Source: Escherichia coli
GTDB taxonomy: Bacteria; Pseudomonadota; Gammaproteobacteria; Enterobacterales; Enterobacteriaceae
Assembly (NCBI RefSeq): GCF_044324875.1
Contig: NZ_CP172185.1
Length of the DNA: 64,000 bases
Direction: 5' to 3' (one strand)
This document shows, piece by piece, positions 10,260-47,115 of the stretch (position 1 is the stretch's first letter; each line of letters opens with the position of its first letter). The notes beneath the pieces were generated by a model. It saw only the letters and a list, made by a program, of their open reading frames with translations, was not told the origin of the DNA and searched no databases. Made by a program: the position numbers and the translations under genes.

Positions 10260-12749
10260 ATGGAGTTCGTCAGAGACTGGCAAAAACCGCGCCCCGCTAT
10301 CGGGCGCGAAGGCTTACCCGTACCTGAAACCGCACTGGATACCATCCTGAAGTGTTACCGCGCAGACGAAGAGCGCGCACTGCACGCTGAAGAGCAGGGT
10401 CATCCGCTTGCGGGCACAACCATCGGTAACGCGATCGACAAGTGGGAAGGCGCACAGGAGCGCCAGGAAGAGGCCATCACGCTCACACAGGAAGCGAGAA
10501 GACACCCGCCCACCCTTATTGAGGAAACCCTCAAAGAGCTGGACACCCTGCCCAAGTGGTTGAGGCTGCCGCTGATTAAGCACCTGAACTTTTTAAGGCG
10601 CAAACAGGAGGACGAACAGCAGAAAGGCAAGCGCGGCAAGGACACCCGCAAATATGAGCGCTTCCTGAAAAACGGCATCCCCGCACGTCTTCGCCGTATT
10701 CGTGAGATTAACGCTCGCTTTGCACCGTTAAGTTTTCAGGCCGCTGCCATGCGCGAGAGTCTGGAAGAACTGATCACACTGCCGAACCTGAGCCGTGAAC
10801 GCATCCAGAAAATAGCCGTACTGCTTGCCAGCGCCGTTAAAATGCATCTTGCCGACGCAATGGACAAGGCCCGCGAAATAACAGGGAACGACAAAGACGA
10901 CAACCTGAACAACTGGCTGATTGCCTACCAGTATATTGGTCGCCGTGTCCTGAAGCTGGGGATCACCCCACCATACTGGAGCGCCCTTGAACTCCGCCCC
11001 GACCGCAGAAGCCCCCCGGACGTGACACTGGTTCCGGGCGCTGTTTTGCGCCTGAACGACGCCGAATGGTGGAATAAAAAACTTCGCCAGATGCACGACG
11101 TCTGGCGTGAGGAACTTTTACGTGCAGCGGGCCTTGTATCCCGCCAGACCTCCGTTTATGTGAGCCGTGAAGCGCTGGCAGACTTCCGCGAAAAACAGGC
11201 CCGTACCCGCGATTTTCTCAAAGCGCACGACGTGGAGAACGAAGACGGCGAACGCATCAGTCTGGAAGATATCTACTACGCCAGTACATCCAACCCGCAT
11301 AACCGCCGCAACGAGATGATGGCGTGCGTTAAGGGAATGGAGCTTATCGCACAGGAACGCGGCGACGTGGCCTTCTTCGTCACGGTCACAGCCCCGTCTC
11401 GTTTTCACAGCGTCACCGACGCAGGCACGCTGAACCCGAAATACAAAGGCGCAACCGTAAAGGACGCCAGCGACTATCTGGTTTATAACTTCTTCGCCTC
11501 CGCCCGCAAACTCATCAAAAAAGAGAAGCGGGGCTGGTACGGCATTCGCACCGTGGAGCCTCACCACGACGGCACGCCCCACTGGCACATGCTGGTATTC
11601 ACAAGCCCTGAGAACGAAGAGCGCATCACGGAAATCATGTGCAATGCCGCCATTCGCGAAGACCGGGCAGAGCTGGGCGACGACATCACCCCGCGCTTCA
11701 AGTGCGAGAAGATAGATCCCGAAAAAGGCACGCCAACCAGCTACATCGCCACCTACATAGGCAAAGGCATTGACGCCGCTGCATTCGGCGACACGGATCC
11801 AAAAACAGGTAAACCGCCCGTTGACCACGAAAGCGGAAAACCTATGGCGGACACCGTGGAAAACGCCGTCGCCTGGGCGCGCCTGCATCGCATTCGCCAG
11901 TTCCAGTTCTTTGGCCTCCCTTCCCGTCAGGTGTGGCGTGAGTTCCGCCGCCTTGCCGGACAAATGGCACGCAACCCGAAGGGGCCGCAGGCACTGACCA
12001 ACCCCAAAGCCGACGCCCTCCTTGTTGCAGCCGATACGGGGTGTTTTGCCAGCTACATCATGCATCAGGGCGGTGTGCTCATTCCCCGTAGTGAATATCT
12101 GGCCCGCACAGCCTACGTCACCGCAGAAGAGCCGAACAATTACAGCGAATTCCCCGAGCGCATTTACGGTATCCGCATGCCGGAACTGGGGGAGGACTTC
12201 ACGTTATGCACCCACCCGGAAGAGTGGAAAATCGTCAGAAAGGAACCGGAACCAGACAACCGCACGGGCGAGGGTTTTGACCTTCAGGGCGGCCCCGCCG
12301 CCCCTTGGACTCGTGGCAATAACTGTCACCCTGACGAAAAAACAACCAACAACAGCACACAAACCGGACAGTCAGAGTGGGCAAAACTGCCCCCCTTACC
12401 CCCATCGTCGGACGGTTTTGTGAGCTGGTTTAAGTCGCTTAAGAGGCCGGACAGGAAAAAACTACAAAGATTGCTCAAAAAACGCACCGAAGAGAGTCGC
12501 CAGAACGCCAGCGGCGGCACCGACACACCCACCGACACCATTAACCTGGGCGTTGTGCTGCCGGAACTGCCGGAAATCGTGCAAGTCCGCCGCGATCTGG
12601 AAGCGCTGGGCGCGGACTTCCCCGAAGCAATGGCCCATTCCGTCTTTATGGGTGCCCGCGTTCGTCTGGGTAACGGTCGCACCGTTCACCGCGACGAGCA
12701 GACCGGGCGCATCACCGTCACCAGTCTGCAACCGGAGGCGAAACCATGA
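10260..12749 (+). CDS. A: Replication initiation protein, P2 gene A family (rolling-circle endonuclease)
   Basis: 829 aa; contains an HUH-type metal-binding motif (HDGTPHWHMLVF) and a downstream tyrosine motif (SYIATYIGKG), as in rolling-circle initiators; position as for P2 A. Confidence 0.85.
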   Translation: MEFVRDWQKPRPAIGREGLPVPETALDTILKCYRADEERALHAEEQGHPLAGTTIGNAIDKWEGAQERQEEAITLTQEARRHPPTLIEETLKELDTLPKWLRLPLIKHLNFLRRKQEDEQQKGKRGKDTRKYERFLKNGIPARLRRIREINARFAPLSFQAAAMRESLEELITLPNLSRERIQKIAVLLASAVKMHLADAMDKAREITGNDKDDNLNNWLIAYQYIGRRVLKLGITPPYWSALELRPDRRSPPDVTLVPGAVLRLNDAEWWNKKLRQMHDVWREELLRAAGLVSRQTSVYVSREALADFREKQARTRDFLKAHDVENEDGERISLEDIYYASTSNPHNRRNEMMACVKGMELIAQERGDVAFFVTVTAPSRFHSVTDAGTLNPKYKGATVKDASDYLVYNFFASARKLIKKEKRGWYGIRTVEPHHDGTPHWHMLVFTSPENEERITEIMCNAAIREDRAELGDDITPRFKCEKIDPEKGTPTSYIATYIGKGIDAAAFGDTDPKTGKPPVDHESGKPMADTVENAVAWARLHRIRQFQFFGLPSRQVWREFRRLAGQMARNPKGPQALTNPKADALLVAADTGCFASYIMHQGGVLIPRSEYLARTAYVTAEEPNNYSEFPERIYGIRMPELGEDFTLCTHPEEWKIVRKEPEPDNRTGEGFDLQGGPAAPWTRGNNCHPDEKTTNNSTQTGQSEWAKLPPLPPSSDGFVSWFKSLKRPDRKKLQRLLKKRTEESRQNASGGTDTPTDTINLGVVLPELPEIVQVRRDLEALGADFPEAMAHSVFMGARVRLGNGRTVHRDEQTGRITVTSLQPEAKP

Positions 12750-13292: not shown

Positions 13293-13667
13293 ATGAATAA
13301 ACAGGATTTTGGACTTGATACCCTTTTGAGTATGCATGGTTACCAGCATCACATGGATAACGGGTACTGGTGGAAAATTGAGGCTTACCGGGTAAGTCCA
13401 AGTCCGTTCAGACCTCACGGGATACGCTACAATCTGACGTTACATGACCGCTACAATTCGCGTGTGTTTGGTATGGACAACGCACATGGAATAAAACCGC
13501 CAAAGAAGGGAAGATTTACAGGAAAGTTAACTGTTTATGATCATGTGCACCGTACCCCGGTGGATAAAGGTTATCCCTATGAGTTTGTATCCGCAGAACA
13601 ATTGTTATCTGATTTCTTTGATAACGTTGATCGGCTCATTAACGAAGTTACAAAGGGGAAAGCATGA
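13293..13667 (+). CDS. Hypothetical small protein (124 aa), first gene of an overlapping two-gene module in the A-to-Q cargo region
   Basis: ORF with own upstream promoter-like region (direct repeats atgatttgtt / atgatttatt); stop overlaps the next start (ATGA). H/Y/W-rich; no motif I can assign with confidence. Confidence 0.6.
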   Translation: MNKQDFGLDTLLSMHGYQHHMDNGYWWKIEAYRVSPSPFRPHGIRYNLTLHDRYNSRVFGMDNAHGIKPPKKGRFTGKLTVYDHVHRTPVDKGYPYEFVSAEQLLSDFFDNVDRLINEVTKGKA

Positions 13668-14050
13668 AAGCCCGCATCGGGATCATCCCGGAAAAAGTCC
13701 TGCGTCAGCGCCTGATTGAAATTGCCAAGGGGGAGCGGAAACCACACCCCGACGAGCCAAGGGTATGGTTTTCATCCATCAATGCGGCGGGTCAGGCGCT
13801 GAGCAATGAAAATATCTCCCTTCTTCGTCTTATGGATGAGGAGAAACCGCAGACCATGACCGAACTTGCGGAGTTATCCGGCAGAAAACTGAGTAACCTG
13901 TCTGTAACCCTGAAAATGCTGAGCAGCTACGGTTTTGTCAGTCTGGAAAAGAAAGGAAATACCGTACACCCGAAGGCACTTTTTACCGATTTTGAAATCA
14001 TCGTTGATCCGTCCGTCGGTTCAGTACATCGCGCCACCGCCCGCCCCTGA
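13664..14050 (+). CDS. Putative winged-helix DNA-binding protein (128 aa), second gene of the two-gene module
   Basis: Central MarR/winged-helix-like segment (MTELAELSGRKLSNLSVTLKMLSSYGFVSLEKKG); translationally coupled to 13293..13667. Confidence 0.6.
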   Translation: MKARIGIIPEKVLRQRLIEIAKGERKPHPDEPRVWFSSINAAGQALSNENISLLRLMDEEKPQTMTELAELSGRKLSNLSVTLKMLSSYGFVSLEKKGNTVHPKALFTDFEIIVDPSVGSVHRATARP

Positions 14051-14063
14051 AGTGTGCAATAAA

Positions 14064-14090
14064 CAGCCCCGGTCGGGGCTGTTTTTTATT
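14064..14090. terminator. Bidirectional intrinsic terminator between the converging 13664..14050 and 14086..14460 genes
   Basis: cagcccc-ggtc-ggggctg hairpin followed by ttttttatt. Confidence 0.6.
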
Positions 14091-14460
14091 CCAGAATCAG
14101 CTGTTCAGGTGTGCAGCCGTACAGTCTGGCAAGGCGCTCAATATTTGCCCTGCGCGGGCGTTCTGTTCTTTCGAATTCGGACACGGTAGCCTGCCTGATA
14201 CCCAGCGCATCCGCCACCTGCTTTTGCGTCATTCCGCGATAGATTCGCCACGCCGCCTGCATGGTGCAGCCACGTTCCGAGAGGATGTTGACCACCTCGT
14301 TGGGATACAGCGTATCAGGCGATGCACTCGGTTCGTTCTGGACGTCCTCGTAGAGTTCGTCAAGGTCGCTGTCTCCTGCCAGTTTTTCAAACAACGCCAC
14401 TGGCAGAATGACGGATACCCTGTTACCCGCACCGTCAGTAATAAACTGAATCTGACTCAT
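14086..14460 (-). CDS. XRE-family helix-turn-helix protein (124 aa), candidate antitoxin
   Basis: C-terminal HTH_XRE-like segment (MTQKQVADALGIRQATVSEFERTERPRRANIERLARLYG); downstream of and co-oriented with a RelE/ParE-like ORF. Confidence 0.6.
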   Translation of the reverse strand: MSQIQFITDGAGNRVSVILPVALFEKLAGDSDLDELYEDVQNEPSASPDTLYPNEVVNILSERGCTMQAAWRIYRGMTQKQVADALGIRQATVSEFERTERPRRANIERLARLYGCTPEQLILE

Positions 14461-14533: not shown

Positions 14534-14806
14534 TTAGTATGTTGTCGAGGTTCTCCGCTGAATACGGAGGATCCTGATAACCACTATCTGCCCTCCCTCA
14601 ATCGTGAACCTGACACGGTAATGATTTACCCTGAGTCTGTACTCCCCGCCCGAGTCAGTGAGCTTTTTAATATCCAGATTCTGGAACTTCGGATAGCCAT
14701 AAAGCGCGTTAACTTTCTCGCGTAAGGATTTCTGATCCCTCGCTGGCAAAACCCGTAAATCTTTGATTGCCCGAGGGGTCCACATGATTTCAGTCGTCAT
14801 AAACAC
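14534..14806 (-). CDS. RelE/ParE-superfamily toxin-like protein (about 88-90 aa; start GTG 14806 or ATG 14800)
   Basis: N-terminal ...WTPRAIKDLRVL... and C-terminal YRLRVNHYRVRF...IVVIRI segments resemble RelE/ParE/HigB-type toxins. Confidence 0.6.
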   Translation of the reverse strand: MFMTTEIMWTPRAIKDLRVLPARDQKSLREKVNALYGYPKFQNLDIKKLTDSGGEYRLRVNHYRVRFTIEGGQIVVIRILRIQRRTSTTY

Positions 14807-14851
14807 ACCGGAAGCAAATTATTAAAGAGCCGTGCCCGCTGGCACACCTTA

Positions 14852-14880
14852 AATATAGGTTTTAACCCCTATATTGTCAA
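14852..14880 (-). promoter_or_regulatory. Sigma70-like promoter (TTGACA-N17-TATATT on minus strand) with an embedded 7-bp inverted repeat operator, upstream of the RelE-like gene
   Basis: Minus-strand ttgaca / 17-bp spacer / tatatt; spacer contains atatagg...cctatat palindrome (plus 14853..14874). Confidence 0.55.
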
Positions 14881-15057
14881 ACAAAATCCCTATATCATGA
14901 AGTAAAAAAGCACCTCCCGCGACCTCCCTTTCCGGTGCACGAAAGTGCACAAATTTGCACAATTTTTTTGAACGACTTTTTGCCCTTCCGGCCCGTGTGG
15001 CGTCTGGATCCGTCGGGGATCCGTGCGTGCACGAAAAAAGGCCTTTTTCTGCGCGCA

Positions 15058-15076
15058 GGTGACGGGGGAACAGCCC
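15058..15076 (+). other. Candidate cos (cohesive end) 19-mer ggtgacgggggaacagccc
   Basis: GC-rich 19-mer in the non-coding region between early/cargo genes and the portal gene; matches 13 of 19 positions of the P2 cos sequence as I recall it (GGCGAGGCGGGGAAAGCAC). Tentative. Confidence 0.3.
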
Positions 15077-15389
15077 GCGTTTCAGGGGGTAAATAGCATT
15101 CCCTGAACGATGTTGCAGTGACACAACAGAATGGCTGTATTTCTCACGCTGAGCGTGAAAAAGACGTAAGGGCTTTTGATTTGATGGGGTGAAAGATAAG
15201 GCCGTCAAAATCGCACTGAGGCAGCGAGAATATGTCGTCAGAGTTGCGGGGTTGCGTAAGCATCCGCCCGGCGATGATGGCTACAGGGCTGGAGATGTTG
15301 TGAAATTATCTGAAGGAATAACCAGCTTGCAGGAGAACCCGGGCAAAGTCAGAATAGCGGCAGGCATCAACTCAAAAGAGGATAATGTC

Positions 15390-15893
15390 ATGAGCCACTT
15401 TAATGATTTATGCCAGATCAATCGTGAAGCTGAAGAAAAACGCGCTGAGGCAGCTCAAATTTTGCGGGATGAAGCGGCAAGGCTGATTGATTTCTATGAA
15501 GAATGGCTGGGGCTTCCATCCATGTACTGGGAAGACGATGATGGCGACCTGCACCGCTACGTGGAGACAGGCTTGCCATGTAAGACAGCGGCGGATTTTA
15601 GTCCTCTTTCAGTCCACAATATCGCATCTGCACCAGACAATATTTTCCGCATGGCCGTACGAACCTGGGTAAAGTCATCTGACAGCAGCTACCCGGTAAG
15701 CGTGGTTATTGCACTTGAATTATATTCAGTAGATGCGGAACGGGTGTCTCTGAGAGTCCGGGTGGAAGACGATATTTCTGTTCGCGTATTTATCAATAAA
15801 CCCAGCGAAGAAGCCTGGGGCGATGTTGTTATGCACATGAAAAAGCACATCGCTAATCACCTGAAAAAGCGAGCGCCATCAGCACTTCGTTAA
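15390..15893 (+). CDS. Hypothetical protein (167 aa from ATG 15390 with AAGAGG ribosome binding site), orphan gene next to the portal gene
   Basis: ORF 15189..15893 with best start at 15390; acidic, no recognisable motif; preceded by about 580 bp without credible coding potential. Confidence 0.55.
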   Translation: MSHFNDLCQINREAEEKRAEAAQILRDEAARLIDFYEEWLGLPSMYWEDDDGDLHRYVETGLPCKTAADFSPLSVHNIASAPDNIFRMAVRTWVKSSDSSYPVSVVIALELYSVDAERVSLRVRVEDDISVRVFINKPSEEAWGDVVMHMKKHIANHLKKRAPSALR

Positions 15894-15908
15894 GCAGAGC
15901 TGGAGAGT

Positions 15909-15933
15909 CGGGGCATAAATTTTTTATGCCCCG
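15909..15933. terminator. Bidirectional hairpin (11-bp stem cggggcataaa / tttatgccccg) between the orphan gene and Q
   Basis: Perfect 11-bp stem, 3-nt loop, A/T tracts on both sides. Confidence 0.6.
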
Positions 15934-15959
15934 GCGAAGCAGCAGACAAGCGAAGCGCG

Positions 15960-17015
15960 TCAGGATATGGGCCGGGTGTCTAACAGTGCGTAAGGGTTAA
16001 AACGGATCACCTCTTCGCCCAGCCAGTCGTTGACGTGTTTCATTGCTTCCATGACGGGCATCAGTTCGTTAATGGCAAACACACGGGCTGCCTTCTCCAC
16101 ATCCCCGAATGACCCCTTCTCACCCGGCATGGCCCCCATCAGCTGAGGTGGCACGCGGTGCACAGCCAGCACGTCATCACGCGATGCGGCCTTGACGTTC
16201 ATGAACTCATCCTTTGCGGTGATTTGCTGAAACGGCAAAATCTGTACGCCATCCTTACCACCTCCCGCCGCGTGGATGAGCAGATTTTTAAACGCCCCGC
16301 CACCACGCGCGCTTTGCAGCGTTTCCCGCAGTTTTTCCATGCTTTCACGGTCAACCTGCGCCGCACCGATGTAGACAATACAGCCCGCGTGTGAGCCGTT
16401 ATCGTAGTAGAGCTTGCGGAAGATATCGGCGGAATGTGACAGGCTGGCAGACAGCAGGCCGCCCAGGTAATCCGGCATCCCGTAAATCTCCTGGTTGATA
16501 TCAGGATTCATCAGGTGGCATATCGTCCCCTCACGAAAGCGGTACTCTTCCTGTCCTTCCTGTATATACCACCATGATTTCATATCGCTGCCACGTCGCA
16601 TGTATTTCGCCAGCGCCCGGCGCAGGGCCAGCGGTTCGCCAAGCATGTTGCGCCGCAGCTCAAGACAGGCATTACCGAACACAAACCAGTCCATCGCCAC
16701 CCCGGCGAACTCCTGGCGGGACAGCAGAGGATGTGGAATATAGCAGCCCAGCAGCACATTACGTTTGAAGCTGAGCGCCGACTGGTGCCAGGACGTCTGG
16801 CGGGCAGCCCGTGCCAGTCCGTACCAGTCAACGGGCGTTTCAAACCACCGCCCGTTGTCGGCGCAGTACATGCTGTCCAGCAGGTCGGCCCCTGACAGCC
16901 GGTAAGGTCCTTCAAACGTGAAGGCACTCAGTGTCGGGTCGCTTCGCAGGGAATCCGCAAGGCTGCCCTGCGCTGCGCGGGCGTTCGTACGTCGTTGTTT
17001 ATTTTTTCTGCTCAT
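15960..17015 (-). CDS. Q: Portal protein, P2 gpQ family
   Basis: 351 aa (P2 Q is about 344 aa as recalled); divergent from the O-N-M-L capsid operon and adjacent to P as in P2. Confidence 0.85.
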   Translation of the reverse strand: MSRKNKQRRTNARAAQGSLADSLRSDPTLSAFTFEGPYRLSGADLLDSMYCADNGRWFETPVDWYGLARAARQTSWHQSALSFKRNVLLGCYIPHPLLSRQEFAGVAMDWFVFGNACLELRRNMLGEPLALRRALAKYMRRGSDMKSWWYIQEGQEEYRFREGTICHLMNPDINQEIYGMPDYLGGLLSASLSHSADIFRKLYYDNGSHAGCIVYIGAAQVDRESMEKLRETLQSARGGGAFKNLLIHAAGGGKDGVQILPFQQITAKDEFMNVKAASRDDVLAVHRVPPQLMGAMPGEKGSFGDVEKAARVFAINELMPVMEAMKHVNDWLGEEVIRFNPYALLDTRPIS

Positions 17016-18766
17016 CAGAACTCCGTAACACTGAAGGGGGCGGCATCATGTTCACCGCCGACAGGTTCGTTGATAACGGCCAGCATGGTGGCCCATGCAA
17101 GATCGCCATGGCTTACGCCTCTTGCGCGATCTGTTTCGTAGGTGATAAATCCGGCCTGCGTTTTTGTTTTGCGTACCGCGTTAAAGGCGCTCACCAGTTC
17201 GCGCTCGCTGCGGTCGTACTCCCACCGCCCGGCGCGCATGAGCTGCAGCATCTTCAGAACCAGCGTGCGCTTTGATGACAGGGTGAAGGTGTAGGGAATG
17301 GCTGCCGGAAAAAAGCGCTTCACAATCTGATACACCGCATCCCCGTGACCGCCGGTTACGTCAATACCGATATGCTCAACGTTATAGCGAAAGGTGAACT
17401 CTTCAATGACCTTCGCCTGCGCCTCAAACTCCAGCCCCTGCACCCGCCGCGTCTCCACGGTGCGAAAACGCCCGCCCGGTACGGCTGGCGGCACCACCAC
17501 GACAACCGCCCCGCTGTCACCGTTCCCGCTACTGCCGTTGGCGTCGTACCCAATCCACACAGGGCGGTTCCCCATCGGACGCGGTGCAAACGGCTTCCAG
17601 TCCGGCCACTCGTCGTATCCGTCAACACCGCAGCCAATCAGGATATTCAGGTTAAATGCCGATTCCCCTTCGCGAGCAAATTCACACATGTAGAGATTGC
17701 GGAACTCGTCTTCAGTGTTATTGCGCCGGATTTTGTCAATGTTGGTTAACGTCCATCCCTGACTGACCACATCTTCCAGCGTCACAATTTGCCGCCAGAT
17801 ATAGTCAGGACAGATAAGGCCGTTATGAAGCGCATTCCAGCTCACATCAAAATGCTGACGTTTATGAGTACGAAGCCCTTCATTCCAGTGATCGCCGTTC
17901 CAGTATGCATACGCCTCATGTGTTTCACTTGATGGCGTGGAAAAATAGGTACACCGCAAACCATCCAGCGTTGCCATAGCAGCAGCCACCTTGCGCAGCT
18001 CTGCGAAACGCCCCGTCCAGAAAAACTCATCAAAATACAGATTCCCTGTGTACGCTTGCGCGGTGGCCGCAGAAGTGCCGAGAAAATGCAGCTCTGCACC
18101 GTTGGAGAGGATGACTTTATCGCCCCCTTTCAGTTCCACATCAACTTCAGATGCAGCCTTCTGAATAATGCTTTTAAACTGGAGCGCCTGACGACGAGAC
18201 GCAGACAAAAAAATCTGGTTACGCTGGTAAGGTTGTGCCACATCGTCACGCAGCGCCATCAGCAGCGCTTCCTGCGCAAAATACCAGGTCGCCCCAATCT
18301 GGCGGGATTTCAGGATCATCCTGTCAGTAATTCCGGCACGCTCACAGGCACCGATAGCATCAAGCCATTTGCGCTGGTGTCCGGCCAGCCTGTCGGTAAT
18401 TTTTTCCCGCAGCGCCGCGATCTGTTCCGGCGTGAAATGATTTTTGCGTTTTTTCGCCCGGCCTTTCTTTCCTGTTGCCGTCTCATCCGGCAGACCGTCA
18501 TGCAGCTTTTTAAGCTGACGGGTCAGCAAATCAATTTCCTTAAAGTCCCCGCCTGTTTTATTCTGTTTTTCCGTGAGCTGAATGAGTCGCGCATCCATGG
18601 ACTGCGTGACACGCTGAACCGGGGGCGTCTCATCCCACTGGTCGCGTTTTTTCCACGAATGGATCGTGTTCTGGTTGATACCCATAAGGCGGCAAATTTC
18701 CGCAACAGGGTAACCCTGCCAGTACAGCTGGCGTGCCCGCTGGCGAACAAATGTATCCTGAATCAT
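17015..18766 (-). CDS. P: Terminase large (ATPase) subunit, P2 gpP family
   Basis: 583 aa; N-terminal HTH-like segment and ATPase-sized body; Q-P pair on the strand opposite to the capsid operon. Confidence 0.85.
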   Translation of the reverse strand: MIQDTFVRQRARQLYWQGYPVAEICRLMGINQNTIHSWKKRDQWDETPPVQRVTQSMDARLIQLTEKQNKTGGDFKEIDLLTRQLKKLHDGLPDETATGKKGRAKKRKNHFTPEQIAALREKITDRLAGHQRKWLDAIGACERAGITDRMILKSRQIGATWYFAQEALLMALRDDVAQPYQRNQIFLSASRRQALQFKSIIQKAASEVDVELKGGDKVILSNGAELHFLGTSAATAQAYTGNLYFDEFFWTGRFAELRKVAAAMATLDGLRCTYFSTPSSETHEAYAYWNGDHWNEGLRTHKRQHFDVSWNALHNGLICPDYIWRQIVTLEDVVSQGWTLTNIDKIRRNNTEDEFRNLYMCEFAREGESAFNLNILIGCGVDGYDEWPDWKPFAPRPMGNRPVWIGYDANGSSGNGDSGAVVVVVPPAVPGGRFRTVETRRVQGLEFEAQAKVIEEFTFRYNVEHIGIDVTGGHGDAVYQIVKRFFPAAIPYTFTLSSKRTLVLKMLQLMRAGRWEYDRSERELVSAFNAVRKTKTQAGFITYETDRARGVSHGDLAWATMLAVINEPVGGEHDAAPFSVTEF

Positions 18767-18920
18767 TTCTCCCCCTCATGTGATTCAGGCAGTTTACTCA
18801 CCCCTTACAGGCCTCCTGCCATGCCCGGTGTTGTCGGCATTCGCTTACAACAAACGCACTTTGTCTGTCCCTGCCCCGTTTTGCCATCATGAGACAAACG
18901 ATCATCACGAGGGCCCGACA

Positions 18921-46878: not shown

Positions 46879-47115
46879 TTTCATTGCAGCCAAAGGCAAA
46901 CTTTGGCTGCATCATTTTACAGTCGCCATAAGCCTTTCCTCTGTTAAACCGCCTTCAGTTTTCCGATCCGTGCTTTTTTTGCAGCTAATTCCATTTTTCT
47001 GCAAAATTCAACAATTATTCATAAACATCATCAATGAAATTGTCATAAACTATTACCTGTAATTTTGGTTTTCCCGGCCAAAAATGGACAATAACCACCA
47101 GGAAAAGGAGACGGA

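What the first reader, a model, noticed from the sequence alone, without database searches (positions are those of the whole stretch)
14881..15942. Orphan 167-aa gene next to the portal gene, preceded by about 500 bp of palindrome-rich non-coding DNA
As I recall, P2 has nothing between cos and Q. Here a gene of unknown function with a good ribosome binding site and a strong bidirectional terminator is inserted. The upstream region (about 14890..15389) has no credible ORF but many palindromes (gtgcac repeats, aaaaaggccttttt, ggatcc...ggatcc, tcacgc-tga-gcgtga). It may contain cos and packaging sites, a promoter, and/or a structured RNA.
Basis: seen in the sequence. Interest (0 to 1): 0.55.

Follow-up and report, generated by a model that had tools for sequence, protein, structure and literature searches.

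The report
Accessory gene beside prophage cos site
The non-coding stretch is the DNA-packaging (cos) site of a P2-like prophage, and the 167-aa gene next to it is a self-contained add-on gene of unknown function sitting in a known cargo slot, so it is a reasonable but unsurprising candidate for a phage-versus-phage conflict gene.

Summary
The window holds a P88-like (Xuanwuvirus) P2-type prophage. By alignment with phage P2, the 19-nt cohesive-end sequence lies at 15058-15076 (GGTGACGGGGGAACAGCCC, 13/19 identical to P2). Four TGCAC boxes sit at -122, -112, -102 and -30, almost exactly where P2 has TGCAT boxes.

The ORF at 15390-15893 is a real gene (dN/dS 0.11-0.25). It has its own conserved sigma-70-type promoter (TTGCAG-17-CAGAAT, 15327-15355), a ribosome binding site and a -28.9 kcal/mol hairpin. 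Its GC3 is 0.46, against 0.61-0.68 in the phage core genes. P88 itself and most relatives lack it.

It is not an orphan. It belongs to PHROG 5091 (unknown function). A divergent paralogue fills the same cos-portal gap in 397 of 5426 complete E. coli genomes; the window's type is in 31.

It has no Pfam, NCBIfam, PADLOC or PDB match. The confident AlphaFold model (pLDDT 92.7) has no informative structural neighbour.

The cos-to-terminator gap is already described as a cargo hotspot of P2-like phages (retrons Ec67/Ec86, the phiCTX toxin).

I found no structured RNA and no credible small ORF upstream.

Most likely this is a prophage-expressed, non-enzymatic phage-conflict factor, but that function is inferred, not shown.

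The parts
14852..14905 (-). Promoter and operator of the neighbouring RelE-type toxin / HTH antitoxin operon.
   Evidence: TTGACA-17-TATATT matches 11 of 12 positions on the minus strand at 14880-14852. Two 21-nt direct repeats lie at 14864-14905. AATATAGG/CCTATATT forms an inverted repeat. This stretch is not conserved in P88.
14936..14960 (+). Three TGCAC boxes spaced exactly 10 bp apart, at -122, -112 and -102 from cos. I read them as a terminase-recognition array.
   Evidence: P2 has TGCAT boxes at -123, -111 and -101 from its experimentally known cos. The boxes are conserved in P88, Salmonella and Edwardsiella relatives. They form a conservation peak across 107 unique sequences. Their function is inferred.
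15006..15022 (.). GGATCC-N5-GGATCC palindrome.
   Evidence: It is present in the window and in P88 but not in the Salmonella or Edwardsiella relatives. It is therefore probably not essential.
15028..15057 (+). Fourth TGCAC box (-30), an A-tract/T-tract palindrome and CTGCGCGCA, lying immediately left of the cohesive-end sequence.
   Evidence: P2 has a TGCAT box at -29 followed by an inverted repeat (CCGCCC..GGGCGG) in the same place. This is the most conserved block of the region.
15058..15076 (+). Predicted 19-nt cohesive-end sequence (cos cleavage region): GGTGACGGGGGAACAGCCC.
   Evidence: It is 13/19 identical to P2 cos GGCGAGGCGGGGAAAGCAC, and an intermediate form in L013 is 15/19 identical. 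Similarity to a hybrid prophage (L014) and to Enterobacter phage phiT5282H stops at 15078-15079. The ends have not been mapped experimentally.
15077..15313 (.). Spacer right of cos, conserved in the P88 lineage, role unknown. It contains TGT-N12-ACA (15111-15128) and TCACGC-TGA-GCGTGA (15144-15158).
   Evidence: It is about 88% conserved in about 1100 E. coli genomes but not in Salmonella or Edwardsiella relatives. The 42-codon GTG ORF annotated here in P88 is truncated in 12 of 62 sequences. There is no conserved RNA fold.
15327..15355 (+). Sigma-70-type promoter of the 167-aa gene: -35 TTGCAG (15327-15332), 17-nt spacer, -10 CAGAAT (15350-15355). The predicted transcription start is about 15362.
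   Evidence: cTTGC(A/C/T)(G/A)-N17-CA(A/G/C)AAT is found upstream of seven further genes of the family in six other loci (L009, L007, L017, L015 with two genes, L122, L021). The spacer sequences are unrelated and the distance to the ATG varies from 30 to 39 nt. The pattern occurs only twice in the 64-kb window. Activity has not been tested.
15377..15382 (+). Ribosome binding site AGAGGA, 7 nt before the ATG.
   Evidence: Read directly from the sequence.
15390..15893 (+). 167-aa accessory gene, PHROG 5091, function unknown.
   Evidence: Matches phrog_5091 at E = 3e-52. dN/dS is 0.11-0.25 against five homologues. GC3 is 0.46, against 0.61-0.68 in portal, terminase and gpA. The AlphaFold model has pLDDT 92.7. 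No Pfam, NCBIfam, PADLOC or PDB match.
15907..15935 (.). 13-bp perfect hairpin shared by the 167-aa gene (plus strand) and the terminase-portal operon (minus strand). It occupies the same position as P2 tQ.
   Evidence: -28.9 kcal/mol, z = -6.1. P2 annotates terminator tQ between cos and Q. The hairpin is present in P88, which lacks the gene. No U-tract follows it on either strand.
15936..15959 (-). Conserved motif GAAGCAGCAGACAAGCGAAGCGCG just beyond the portal stop codon (3' UTR of the portal operon).
   Evidence: It is conserved in P88, in Edwardsiella (where the hairpin sequence differs), in L010 and in L026.
15960..17015 (-). Portal gene (gpQ homologue), the right-hand boundary of the slot.
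   Evidence: ORF list. PGAP names it 'phage portal protein'.

Best explanation
The interval is the cos region of a P88-like (Xuanwuvirus) P2-type prophage, with a 'moron' lodged between cos and the terminator of the terminase-portal operon.

Anatomy, shown by comparison:
- Four TGCAC boxes and a palindrome lead up to a 19-nt cohesive-end sequence at 15058-15076.
- About 240 bp of lineage-specific spacer follows.
- Then comes a self-contained cassette: a sigma-70 promoter (15327-15355), a ribosome binding site, a 167-aa ORF (15390-15893) and a strong hairpin.
- The cassette is absent from P88 itself and from most close relatives.
- It has a foreign base composition and is under purifying selection.
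- It belongs to PHROG 5091. Different members of that family occupy this same cos-portal slot in about a third of the E. coli genomes that carry this cos region.

Mechanism, inferred:
- The gene is transcribed from its own constitutive promoter in the lysogen, independently of the phage late operons.
- It makes a small, soluble, mildly acidic helix-sheet-helix protein with no conserved catalytic residues.
- This protein most likely acts by binding another protein in phage-versus-phage conflict, as the single-protein P2 conversion genes tin and fun do (superinfection exclusion or defence).
- It probably entered, or is lost from relatives, by recombination at short repeats next to the cohesive end.
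For: cos:
- The alignment with P2 places GGTGACGGGGGAACAGCCC on P2's cohesive end, 13/19 identical.
- The TGCA(C/T) boxes lie at -122/-112/-102/-30 here and at -123/-111/-101/-29 in P2.
- This block is the conservation maximum of the region.
- Similarity to L014 and to phiT5282H ends at 15078-15079.

A real gene:
- dN/dS is 0.11-0.25.
- All eight homologues found align from the same Met.

A moron:
- Relative to P88, about 570 bp (15346-15915) is extra.
- The cos region is in 1140 of 5426 E. coli genomes, the gene in 31.
- GC3 is 0.46 against 0.61-0.68.
- The promoter TTGCnn-17-CAnAAT is conserved upstream of seven further family genes despite unrelated spacers.
- The hairpin folds at -28.9 kcal/mol.

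A slot-specific family:
- 22 of the 108 IMG/VR contigs that carry this cos motif and a full-length portal match have a PHROG 5091 member between cos and portal. Two further loci, L015 and L016 (found through homologue P0008), carry two members in tandem.
- The paralogue WP_000236495 is in 397 E. coli genomes.

A known hotspot:
- PMC5694545 states that the cosL-gpQ position is a suggested hotspot for foreign genes, citing Dodd & Egan 1996 on retrons Ec67/Ec86 between cos and a terminator.
- Rousset et al. 2022 show that the gpA-gpQ locus is a reservoir of anti-phage systems. They list WP_000236495 at least 167 times as 'hypothetical' there.

Non-enzymatic:
- Only L40, W47, Y57 and G61 are invariant across 33 sequences.
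- pI is about 5.4 and the protein is hydrophilic overall (GRAVY -0.36).
Against: - There is no experimental evidence for the cos ends, for promoter activity or for any phenotype.
- No phage record begins at the predicted cos. Record LR595891 starts at the equivalent of 14981.
- Neither the window protein nor nine divergent relatives match any of 5027 PADLOC defence models.
- A 167-aa protein without an enzymatic or membrane domain is unusual for a stand-alone defence gene and equally fits an inhibitor (counter-defence).
- Distant family members lie elsewhere in other phages: inside a tail-gene cluster, overlapping a Dit-like gene by 8 nt (L141), and between the lysis genes and terminase (L142).
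- In L010-L012 the gene has no promoter of its own and follows parM-stbB.
- The promoter is weak by consensus (7 of 12) and was not picked up by the generic scan.
Confidence: 0.55

Rival explanations
1. It is a counter-defence (inhibitor) protein rather than a defence protein. The gene sits about 330 bp from the left cohesive end with its own host-type promoter. It would be expressed as soon as the phage DNA enters a cell, or continuously in the lysogen, and would bind and neutralise a host or rival-phage immunity component.
For: - The protein is small, soluble, mildly acidic and non-enzymatic, and its only weak fold neighbours are binding or dimerisation modules.
- Family members at the same position are only 17-30% identical, which suggests rapid diversification.
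- It has a promoter independent of the phage regulatory circuits.
- It matches no known defence model.
Against: - I could not establish which P2 end enters the cell first.
- The protein is not strongly acidic like the DNA mimics (pI 5.4).
- Cargo so far characterised at this locus is mostly defence.
Confidence: 0.2
2. It is a packaging-related accessory or anti-satellite factor. The protein would act at cos or on terminase, capsid or portal, for example to modulate packaging or to block piracy by P4-like satellites that use the same cos.
For: - The family sits persistently next to cos and the portal-terminase operon in P88-like phages.
- A distant member lies a few genes upstream of a lambda-type terminase in another phage.
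- P2 and P4 share the cos core and are in conflict.
Against: - About 62% of the E. coli genomes with this cos region carry no detected member in the slot, and P88 itself lacks one. It therefore cannot be needed for packaging.
- The L010-L012 copies sit after parM-stbB and are separated from the portal gene by two other genes.
- Its own sigma-70 promoter argues for expression outside the late programme.
- It has no DNA-binding motif.
Confidence: 0.1
3. It is a host-directed lysogenic conversion or fitness gene (as ctx is in phiCTX), or a nearly neutral passenger with no role in phage conflict.
For: - The same slot carries a cytotoxin in phiCTX and a Vgr-like gene in phiRSY1.
- The window's allele occurs mainly in poultry-associated E. 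coli.
Against: - The predicted protein is cytoplasmic: hydrophilic overall (GRAVY -0.36) with an N-terminal amphipathic-looking helix and no hydrophobic leader.
- Purifying selection (dN/dS 0.11-0.25) across genera, and a conserved promoter, argue against neutrality.
- The family is spread over many non-pathogenic Gammaproteobacteria.
Confidence: 0.1
4. It is a conserved virion or tail-assembly component that annotation has missed.
For: - One AFDB relative is named 'Phage tail protein'.
- A distant member lies inside a tail-gene cluster and overlaps the next gene.
Against: - It is absent from P88 and from the majority of closely related prophages, which are otherwise complete.
- It is transcribed convergently to the head genes from a sigma-70 promoter.
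- tblastn finds nothing in 50,697 phage records.
Confidence: 0.03

Closest known systems
cos region of phage P2 (NC_001895): cosL 1-19, terminator tQ 160-181, portal gene Q from 187; 55-bp cos core of Ziermann & Calendar 1990
   Same: - The order is the same: right-arm cargo, TGCA(C/T) boxes at about -122/-112/-102/-30, an inverted repeat, a 19-nt G-rich cohesive-end sequence (13/19 identical), then a hairpin and the convergent portal gene.
   Different: - The cohesive-end sequence differs at 6 of 19 positions.
- The interval from cos to the hairpin is about 270 bp in the P88 lineage, against about 140 bp in P2.
- Here that interval additionally holds a gene.
- The ends are not experimentally mapped for this lineage.
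Cargo hotspot between cos and the first terminator/portal gene of P2-like phages: retrons Ec67 and Ec86 in 186-like prophages (Dodd & Egan 1996), ctx in phiCTX (Nakayama 1999), ORF1-4 of phiRSY1 (PMC5694545)
   Same: - Foreign DNA is lodged between cosL and the gpQ homologue or its terminator without disturbing the phage operons.
- The cargo is patchily distributed among close relatives. More than 90% of phiCTX-like prophages lack ctx.
   Different: - The cargo here is a different, uncharacterised protein family.
- The same family recurs in this slot across E. coli, Salmonella, Edwardsiella and other phages, sometimes in tandem.
P2 gpA-gpQ defence hotspot (Rousset et al. 2022, PMC9122126) and the P2 conversion genes old, tin and fun
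   Same: - The gene lies within the locus as they define it, between gpA and gpQ.
- Its paralogue WP_000236495 appears in their table of arrangements, and so does a possible equivalent, WP_024211219, whose identity I did not verify.
- It is a single gene expressed from a prophage, like tin and fun. That comparison rests on my general knowledge of P2.
   Different: - It lies on the portal side of cos, whereas old and tin lie on the other side.
- No anti-phage activity has been reported or tested.
- It has no similarity to any PADLOC model.
PHROG 5091 (unknown function)
   Same: - The window protein matches at E = 3e-52 over the full length. All nine divergent relatives tested match the same PHROG.
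   Different: - Nothing differs; it is a member. The family carries no function, Pfam domain or solved structure.
'Morons' of lambdoid phages (an extra gene with its own promoter and terminator between two phage genes; concept of Juhala/Hendrix, from general knowledge)
   Same: - It has its own promoter and a terminator-like hairpin.
- It is absent from close relatives and has a deviant base composition.
   Different: - The hairpin is shared with the portal operon and pre-exists in relatives that lack the gene. The cassette proper is therefore promoter plus ORF.

Membership tests
P2-type cos site | 19-nt G+C-rich cohesive-end sequence related to GGCGAGGCGGGGAAAGCAC | tested here: met
   GGTGACGGGGGAACAGCCC at 15058-15076 is 13/19 identical. 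It is the only match of 15/19 or better in the 64-kb window; three 14/19 matches lie on the minus strand elsewhere. An intermediate 15/19 form occurs in L013.
P2-type cos site | Position between the right-arm cargo (after gpA) and the convergent portal gene, with conserved flanking core | tested here: met
   The order gpA - cargo - cos - portal holds. TGCA(C/T) boxes lie at the same four distances as in P2. This block is the conservation peak.
P2-type cos site | Virion DNA ends with 5' overhangs at this sequence | not testable with these tools
   No phage record in the collection starts or ends at this position.
Moron (autonomous accessory cassette) | Absent from closely related phages at the same site | tested here: met
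   P88 lacks 15346-15915. 31 of about 1140 E. coli genomes with this cos region have the window's type of gene.
Moron (autonomous accessory cassette) | Own promoter | tested here: met
   In silico only. TTGCnn-N17-CAnAAT is conserved upstream of the window gene and seven further family genes, with unrelated spacers. Transcription has not been measured.
Moron (autonomous accessory cassette) | Own terminator | tested here: inconclusive
   A strong hairpin follows the stop codon. It has no U-tract, and it is also present in relatives that lack the gene, where it serves the portal operon.
Moron (autonomous accessory cassette) | Base composition different from the phage backbone | tested here: met
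   GC3 is 0.46, against 0.68 (portal), 0.61 (terminase) and 0.675 (gpA).
PHROG 5091 | Full-length match to the family profile | tested here: met
   E = 3.1e-52, residues 1-166 on profile positions 2-163 of 164.
Known anti-phage defence system | Match to a model of a known or candidate defence protein | tested here: not met
   No PADLOC hit for the window protein (E <= 0.01) or for nine divergent relatives (E <= 0.1).
Known anti-phage defence system | Location in a recognised defence hotspot | tested here: met
   It lies in the gpA-gpQ locus of P2-like phages and in the cos-gpQ slot.
Known anti-phage defence system | Protection against phage infection when expressed | not testable with these tools
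   No report found for WP_001354611, WP_000236495 or phrog_5091.
Intrinsic (rho-independent) terminator | G+C-rich stem-loop followed by a U-tract | tested here: not met
   The stem is met (13 bp, -28.9 kcal/mol). No run of T follows it on either strand, and the terminator scan did not report it.
Structured non-coding RNA | Rfam match, or a conserved fold better than shuffled alignments | tested here: not met
   The only Rfam hit is gyrA RNA at 22.2 bits against a gathering score of 45, and it lies on the hairpin. Alifold gave z = -1.4 (plus strand) and -1.0 (minus strand) for 15077-15321 across 15 sequences.
Ogr/Delta-dependent P2 late promoter | TGT-N12-ACA about 55 bp upstream of a start site with a usable -10 | tested here: inconclusive
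   TGT-N12-ACA at 15111-15128 is kept in 61 of 62 P88-like sequences, with changes inside the N12. The motif is not enriched in the window (12 found against about 16 expected), and no convincing -10 lies at the right distance.
Conserved virion structural gene | Present in all members of the phage lineage | tested here: not met
   Absent from P88 and from 86 of the 108 sampled contigs that carry this cos motif and a full-length portal match.

The most novel reading that the evidence does not exclude
PHROG 5091 is a previously unrecognised family of single-protein, non-enzymatic phage-conflict factors, either exclusion or anti-defence. It has specialised in the cosL-portal slot of P2-like phages. 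It is carried by roughly 8% of complete E. coli genomes. It diversifies by cassette swapping at the cohesive end, and may be the first gene expressed from the incoming left end of the genome.
Probability: 0.3. Interest if true: 0.55.

Novelty: new member of a known kind. Interest (0 to 1): 0.3.

Why it matters
- The work gives a testable position for the cos site of the P88/Xuanwuvirus lineage, which is present in about a fifth of complete E. coli genomes.
- It shows that the short gap between cos and the portal gene is a cargo slot of its own, repeatedly filled by one uncharacterised protein family that carries a conserved promoter.
- That family (PHROG 5091; WP_000236495 and WP_001354611 in E. 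coli) is common, compact and easy to clone. It is a cheap candidate for phage-exclusion or anti-defence screens.
- Homology to two relatives breaks exactly at the right edge of the cohesive-end sequence. This gives sequence-level support to the published idea that cohesive ends drive cargo exchange in P2-like phages.
- None of this overturns current views.

Tried and rejected
- Small ORF upstream. The GTG ORF from 15189, annotated as a 42-aa protein in P88 and fused in frame to the 167-aa ORF here, is truncated in 12 of 62 P88-like sequences and has no Shine-Dalgarno sequence. I rejected it as coding. The 197-aa and 234-aa gene models are therefore over-extended.
- Structured RNA. Rfam in permissive mode gave one sub-threshold hit on the hairpin. 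Alifold on 15 sequences was no better than column shuffles. A first, larger run timed out.
- Function by homology. All of these gave nothing: Pfam on the protein and on all 33 aligned members, NCBIfam, PADLOC, a PDB sequence profile and tblastn against 50,697 phage records.
- Experimental cos ends from database records. No record starts at the predicted site. LR595891 starts 77 nt upstream of it, probably an arbitrary linearisation.
- Late promoter. TGT-N12-ACA is conserved, but I left it as inconclusive.
- The search for related loci with the broad alignment failed because no stretch was conserved enough.
- cos in the L010-L012 lineage could not be located with the P2/P88 motif.
- The literature search for the direction of P2 packaging and injection gave nothing usable.
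Full report
**What is at the coordinates**

The window carries a P2-type prophage. In order it holds:
- the replication gene gpA (10260-12749);
- about 2 kb of cargo;
- a non-coding stretch (14807-15389);
- a 167-aa ORF (15390-15893, plus strand);
- a hairpin (15907-15935);
- the convergent portal gene (15960-17015) and large terminase gene (17015-18766).

The closest phage records are Escherichia phage P88 and other Xuanwuvirus members of the Peduoviridae. The ORF, its ribosome binding site (AGAGGA, 7 nt before the ATG), the hairpin and all the listed palindromes are present as described. Perfect inverted repeats are modestly enriched: 5 observed against 1.35 expected, and 4 of 300 shuffles reach 5.

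**The non-coding DNA is mostly the cos region**

I aligned the window with the experimentally defined cos region of P2 (cosL 1-19 and cosR in NC_001895).
- The alignment places GGTGACGGGGGAACAGCCC (15058-15076) on P2's GGCGAGGCGGGGAAAGCAC, with 13/19 identical. A 15/19 intermediate occurs in another E. coli P2-like prophage, L013.
- The surrounding architecture matches closely. The window has TGCAC boxes at -122, -112, -102 and -30 from the cohesive-end sequence. P2 has TGCAT boxes at -123, -111, -101 and -29. In both, an inverted repeat sits just before the cleavage region.
- These elements are also the best-conserved columns among 107 unique related sequences, and they persist in Salmonella and Edwardsiella relatives.
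- Two relatives share the left side and then diverge exactly at 15078-15079. They are a hybrid prophage, L014, and Enterobacter phage phiT5282H. This is the pattern expected if exchange happens at the cohesive end.
- Papers on other P2-like phages assign cos by the same kind of analogy to the 55-bp core (PMC3931495; PMC5694545).
- The ends are not mapped experimentally here, and no database record begins at this site.

**What else is in the non-coding stretch**

- 14807-14935 is not conserved in P88. It holds a near-consensus minus-strand promoter (TTGACA-17-TATATT) with operator-like repeats for the adjacent RelE-type toxin / HTH antitoxin operon.
- 15077-15313 is conserved at about 88% in about 1100 E. 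coli genomes but not in other genera. I could not assign it a role.
  - The 42-codon ORF annotated there in P88 is truncated in 12 of 62 sequences.
  - It shows no conserved RNA fold and no Rfam family.
  - A TGT-N12-ACA motif, the Ogr/Delta-type activator site by my recollection of the P2 literature, is kept in 61 of 62 sequences. It lacks a convincing -10.

**The gene is a real, autonomous accessory cassette**

- Homologues in E. coli, Salmonella and Edwardsiella are 62-87% identical. Five of the eight found are 167 aa, and all eight align from the same Met (MSHF/MGHF).
- Pairwise dN/dS is 0.11-0.25.
- Relative to P88, about 570 bp (15346-15915) is extra. It is bounded by an imperfect direct repeat: GGAGAACCCGGGCA at 15333-15346 and GGAGAGTCGGGGCA at 15902-15915. 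Either insertion or deletion by short-repeat recombination is therefore possible (this is inference).
- GC3 is 0.46, against 0.61-0.68 in the phage core genes.
- Upstream of the ATG lies TTGCAG-17-CAGAAT (15327-15355).
  - The same TTGCnn-N17-CAnAAT arrangement precedes seven further family genes in six other loci that I examined, including proteins only 20-30% identical.
  - The spacer sequences are unrelated and the distance to the ATG varies from 30 to 39 nt.
  - The pattern occurs only twice in the whole window, with about one expected by chance. Its recurrence at the same relative place is therefore good comparative evidence for a promoter, although the generic scan missed it.
- The hairpin is very stable at -28.9 kcal/mol, and it occupies the position of P2's tQ. 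It has no U-tract and exists in relatives without the gene, so it primarily belongs to the portal operon.

**It is not an orphan**

- The protein matches PHROG 5091 (unknown function) at E = 3e-52.
- A profile search of 1.8 billion representative proteins found 31 matches at E <= 0.001. I aligned 27 of them, all 143-210 aa long, in A5. All nine divergent ones that I tested also fall in PHROG 5091.
- I collected 108 IMG/VR contigs that carry this cos motif and a full-length portal match, and sorted them by the distance from cos to the portal gene:

| Contigs | cos-portal distance | Content of the gap |
|---|---|---|
| 66 | about 320-330 bp | no gene (P88-like) |
| 18 | about 260 bp | no gene |
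| 19 | about 954 bp | a 174-aa PHROG 5091 paralogue, inserted after the hairpin with its own canonical terminator |
| 3 | 710-905 bp | the window's type, or a 31%-identical type |
| 2 | 384 and 512 bp | no family member |

- Two loci found through homologue P0008, L015 and L016, carry two members in tandem between cos and portal.
- In complete E. coli genomes the cos region is in 1140 of 5426, the paralogue (WP_000236495) is in 397, and the window's type is in 31, many of them poultry isolates.
- In another P2-like lineage (L010-L012) the ORF follows parM-stbB. It has travelled together with the hairpin and a stub that looks like the 3' end of a portal gene, which would show the cassette has moved between lineages.
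- More distant members lie at other typical cargo positions in unrelated phages: between the lysis genes and terminase, and inside a tail-gene cluster.

**What it might do**

- No Pfam, NCBIfam, PADLOC or PDB-sequence match exists for the protein or its relatives.
- AlphaFold with the 33-sequence alignment gives a confident model (pLDDT 92.7, pTM 0.86). It has a 38-residue N-terminal helix, an antiparallel sheet and a C-terminal helix.
- Only L40, W47, Y57 and G61 are invariant. pI is about 5.4 and the protein is hydrophilic overall. This points to a binding protein, not an enzyme.
- The cos-to-portal position has been named a hotspot for foreign genes in P2-like phages. Examples are retrons Ec67/Ec86 between cos and a terminator of a 186-like prophage, ctx in phiCTX, and ORF1-4 in phiRSY1 (PMC5694545).
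- The wider gpA-gpQ locus is a documented reservoir of anti-phage systems (PMC9122126; 2026 preprint).
- Rousset et al. list WP_000236495 at least 167 times. They also list WP_024211219 with several different neighbouring cargos; I did not verify that this accession is the window-type protein. Both appear as 'hypothetical'. If the equivalence holds, the gene is independent of the cargo on the other side of cos. No paper mentions these accessions or the PHROG.
- I therefore favour a prophage-expressed phage-conflict factor that acts by binding. Counter-defence is the main rival. This step is inference.

**Verdict**

- The main reading holds: an inserted gene next to cos, with cos and a promoter in the upstream DNA.
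- 'Orphan', 'structured RNA' and 'bidirectional terminator' do not hold as stated.
- The finding is an uncharacterised but common member of a known kind (a moron in a known P2 hotspot). It is of moderate-to-low interest unless a phenotype is found.

Noticed in passing
window 14852-14905 (and genes 14534-14800 and 14086-14460, minus strand): A RelE/ParE-type toxin gene is followed by an HTH antitoxin gene (toxin first, a HigBA-like order). The operon has a near-consensus promoter, TTGACA-17-TATATT. The promoter is overlapped by two 21-nt direct repeats and an AATATAGG/CCTATATT inverted repeat, which is probably the autoregulation operator.
   Followed up: partly
window 13293-14050 (+): An overlapping gene pair encodes a DUF6516 protein and an HVO_A0114-family winged-helix protein (PGAP names). 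The second protein has weak PADLOC hits to CasR/CARF-associated HTH models. The pair sits in the P2 defence hotspot and could be a two-gene toxin-antitoxin or defence module. The HVO_A0114-family gene (WP_029400441) is listed as 'hypothetical' in a similar six-gene hotspot arrangement in Rousset et al. Table S5; the window's DUF6516 accession is not in that table.
   Followed up: partly
window 15111-15128: TGT-N12-ACA, the motif of Ogr/Delta-activated P2 late promoters, is conserved in 61 of 62 P88-like sequences, with substitutions inside the N12. No clear -10 lies downstream. A second copy at 18832-18849 lies between the divergent terminase and scaffold genes, where late promoters are expected.
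   Followed up: partly
window 15077-15313: About 240 bp to the right of cos is conserved at about 88% in about 1100 E. coli genomes, but it is neither coding nor foldable as RNA, and it is absent from Salmonella and Edwardsiella relatives. Its role is unexplained; it may be a packaging accessory site.
   Followed up: partly
L014 6001-6144 (E. coli H1827/12) and L145 3501-3645 (Enterobacter phage phiT5282H): Homology to the window runs through the TGCAC boxes and cos and then stops at the right edge of the cohesive-end sequence (window 15078-15079). This fits the published speculation that cohesive ends seed recombination and cargo exchange.
   Followed up: partly
L015 5001-6175 and L016 243-1417: Two PHROG 5091 genes lie in tandem between cos and portal. 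Each has its own TTGCnn-17-CAAAAT promoter, and the conserved hairpin separates them. Cassettes can therefore stack in this slot.
   Followed up: partly
L010 5001-5600 (also L011, L012): In a different P2-like lineage the same ORF follows parM-stbB with no promoter of its own. It is followed by the same hairpin, the conserved 3'-UTR motif and what looks like a stub of a portal 3' end, then a 209-aa gene, an ogr/delta gene and the portal gene. I could not locate cos in that lineage.
   Followed up: partly
window 15189-15389; L006 5501-6094: Public gene models over-extend the N-terminus. PGAP gives WP_001354611.1 as 197 aa from GTG 15300. A JGI model gives 234 aa from GTG 15189. AFDB holds 197-aa and 236-aa versions. 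Homologues support the ATG at 15390.
   Followed up: yes
E. coli genomes listed: The window's allele of the gene (>=99% identical) is found in 26 complete genomes. A large share of these are chicken or poultry isolates, which may simply reflect one circulating prophage lineage.
   Followed up: no
L088 7130-7620: An IMG/VR contig has an intact P88-type cos region and hairpin, but the sequence that aligns with the portal gene's 3' end breaks off about 20 nt beyond the stop-codon position. It is probably a decayed prophage.
   Followed up: no
L004 1 (LR595891, Xuanwuvirus P884B11): This linear phage record begins at the equivalent of window 14981. That is 77 nt left of the predicted cos and between the TGCAC boxes and cos. 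It is likely an arbitrary start rather than a mapped end.
   Followed up: partly
window 46979-47007 (+): This is the only other match in the window to the promoter pattern TTGCnn-N17-CAnAAT (TTGCAG...CAAAAT). I did not examine it.
   Followed up: no
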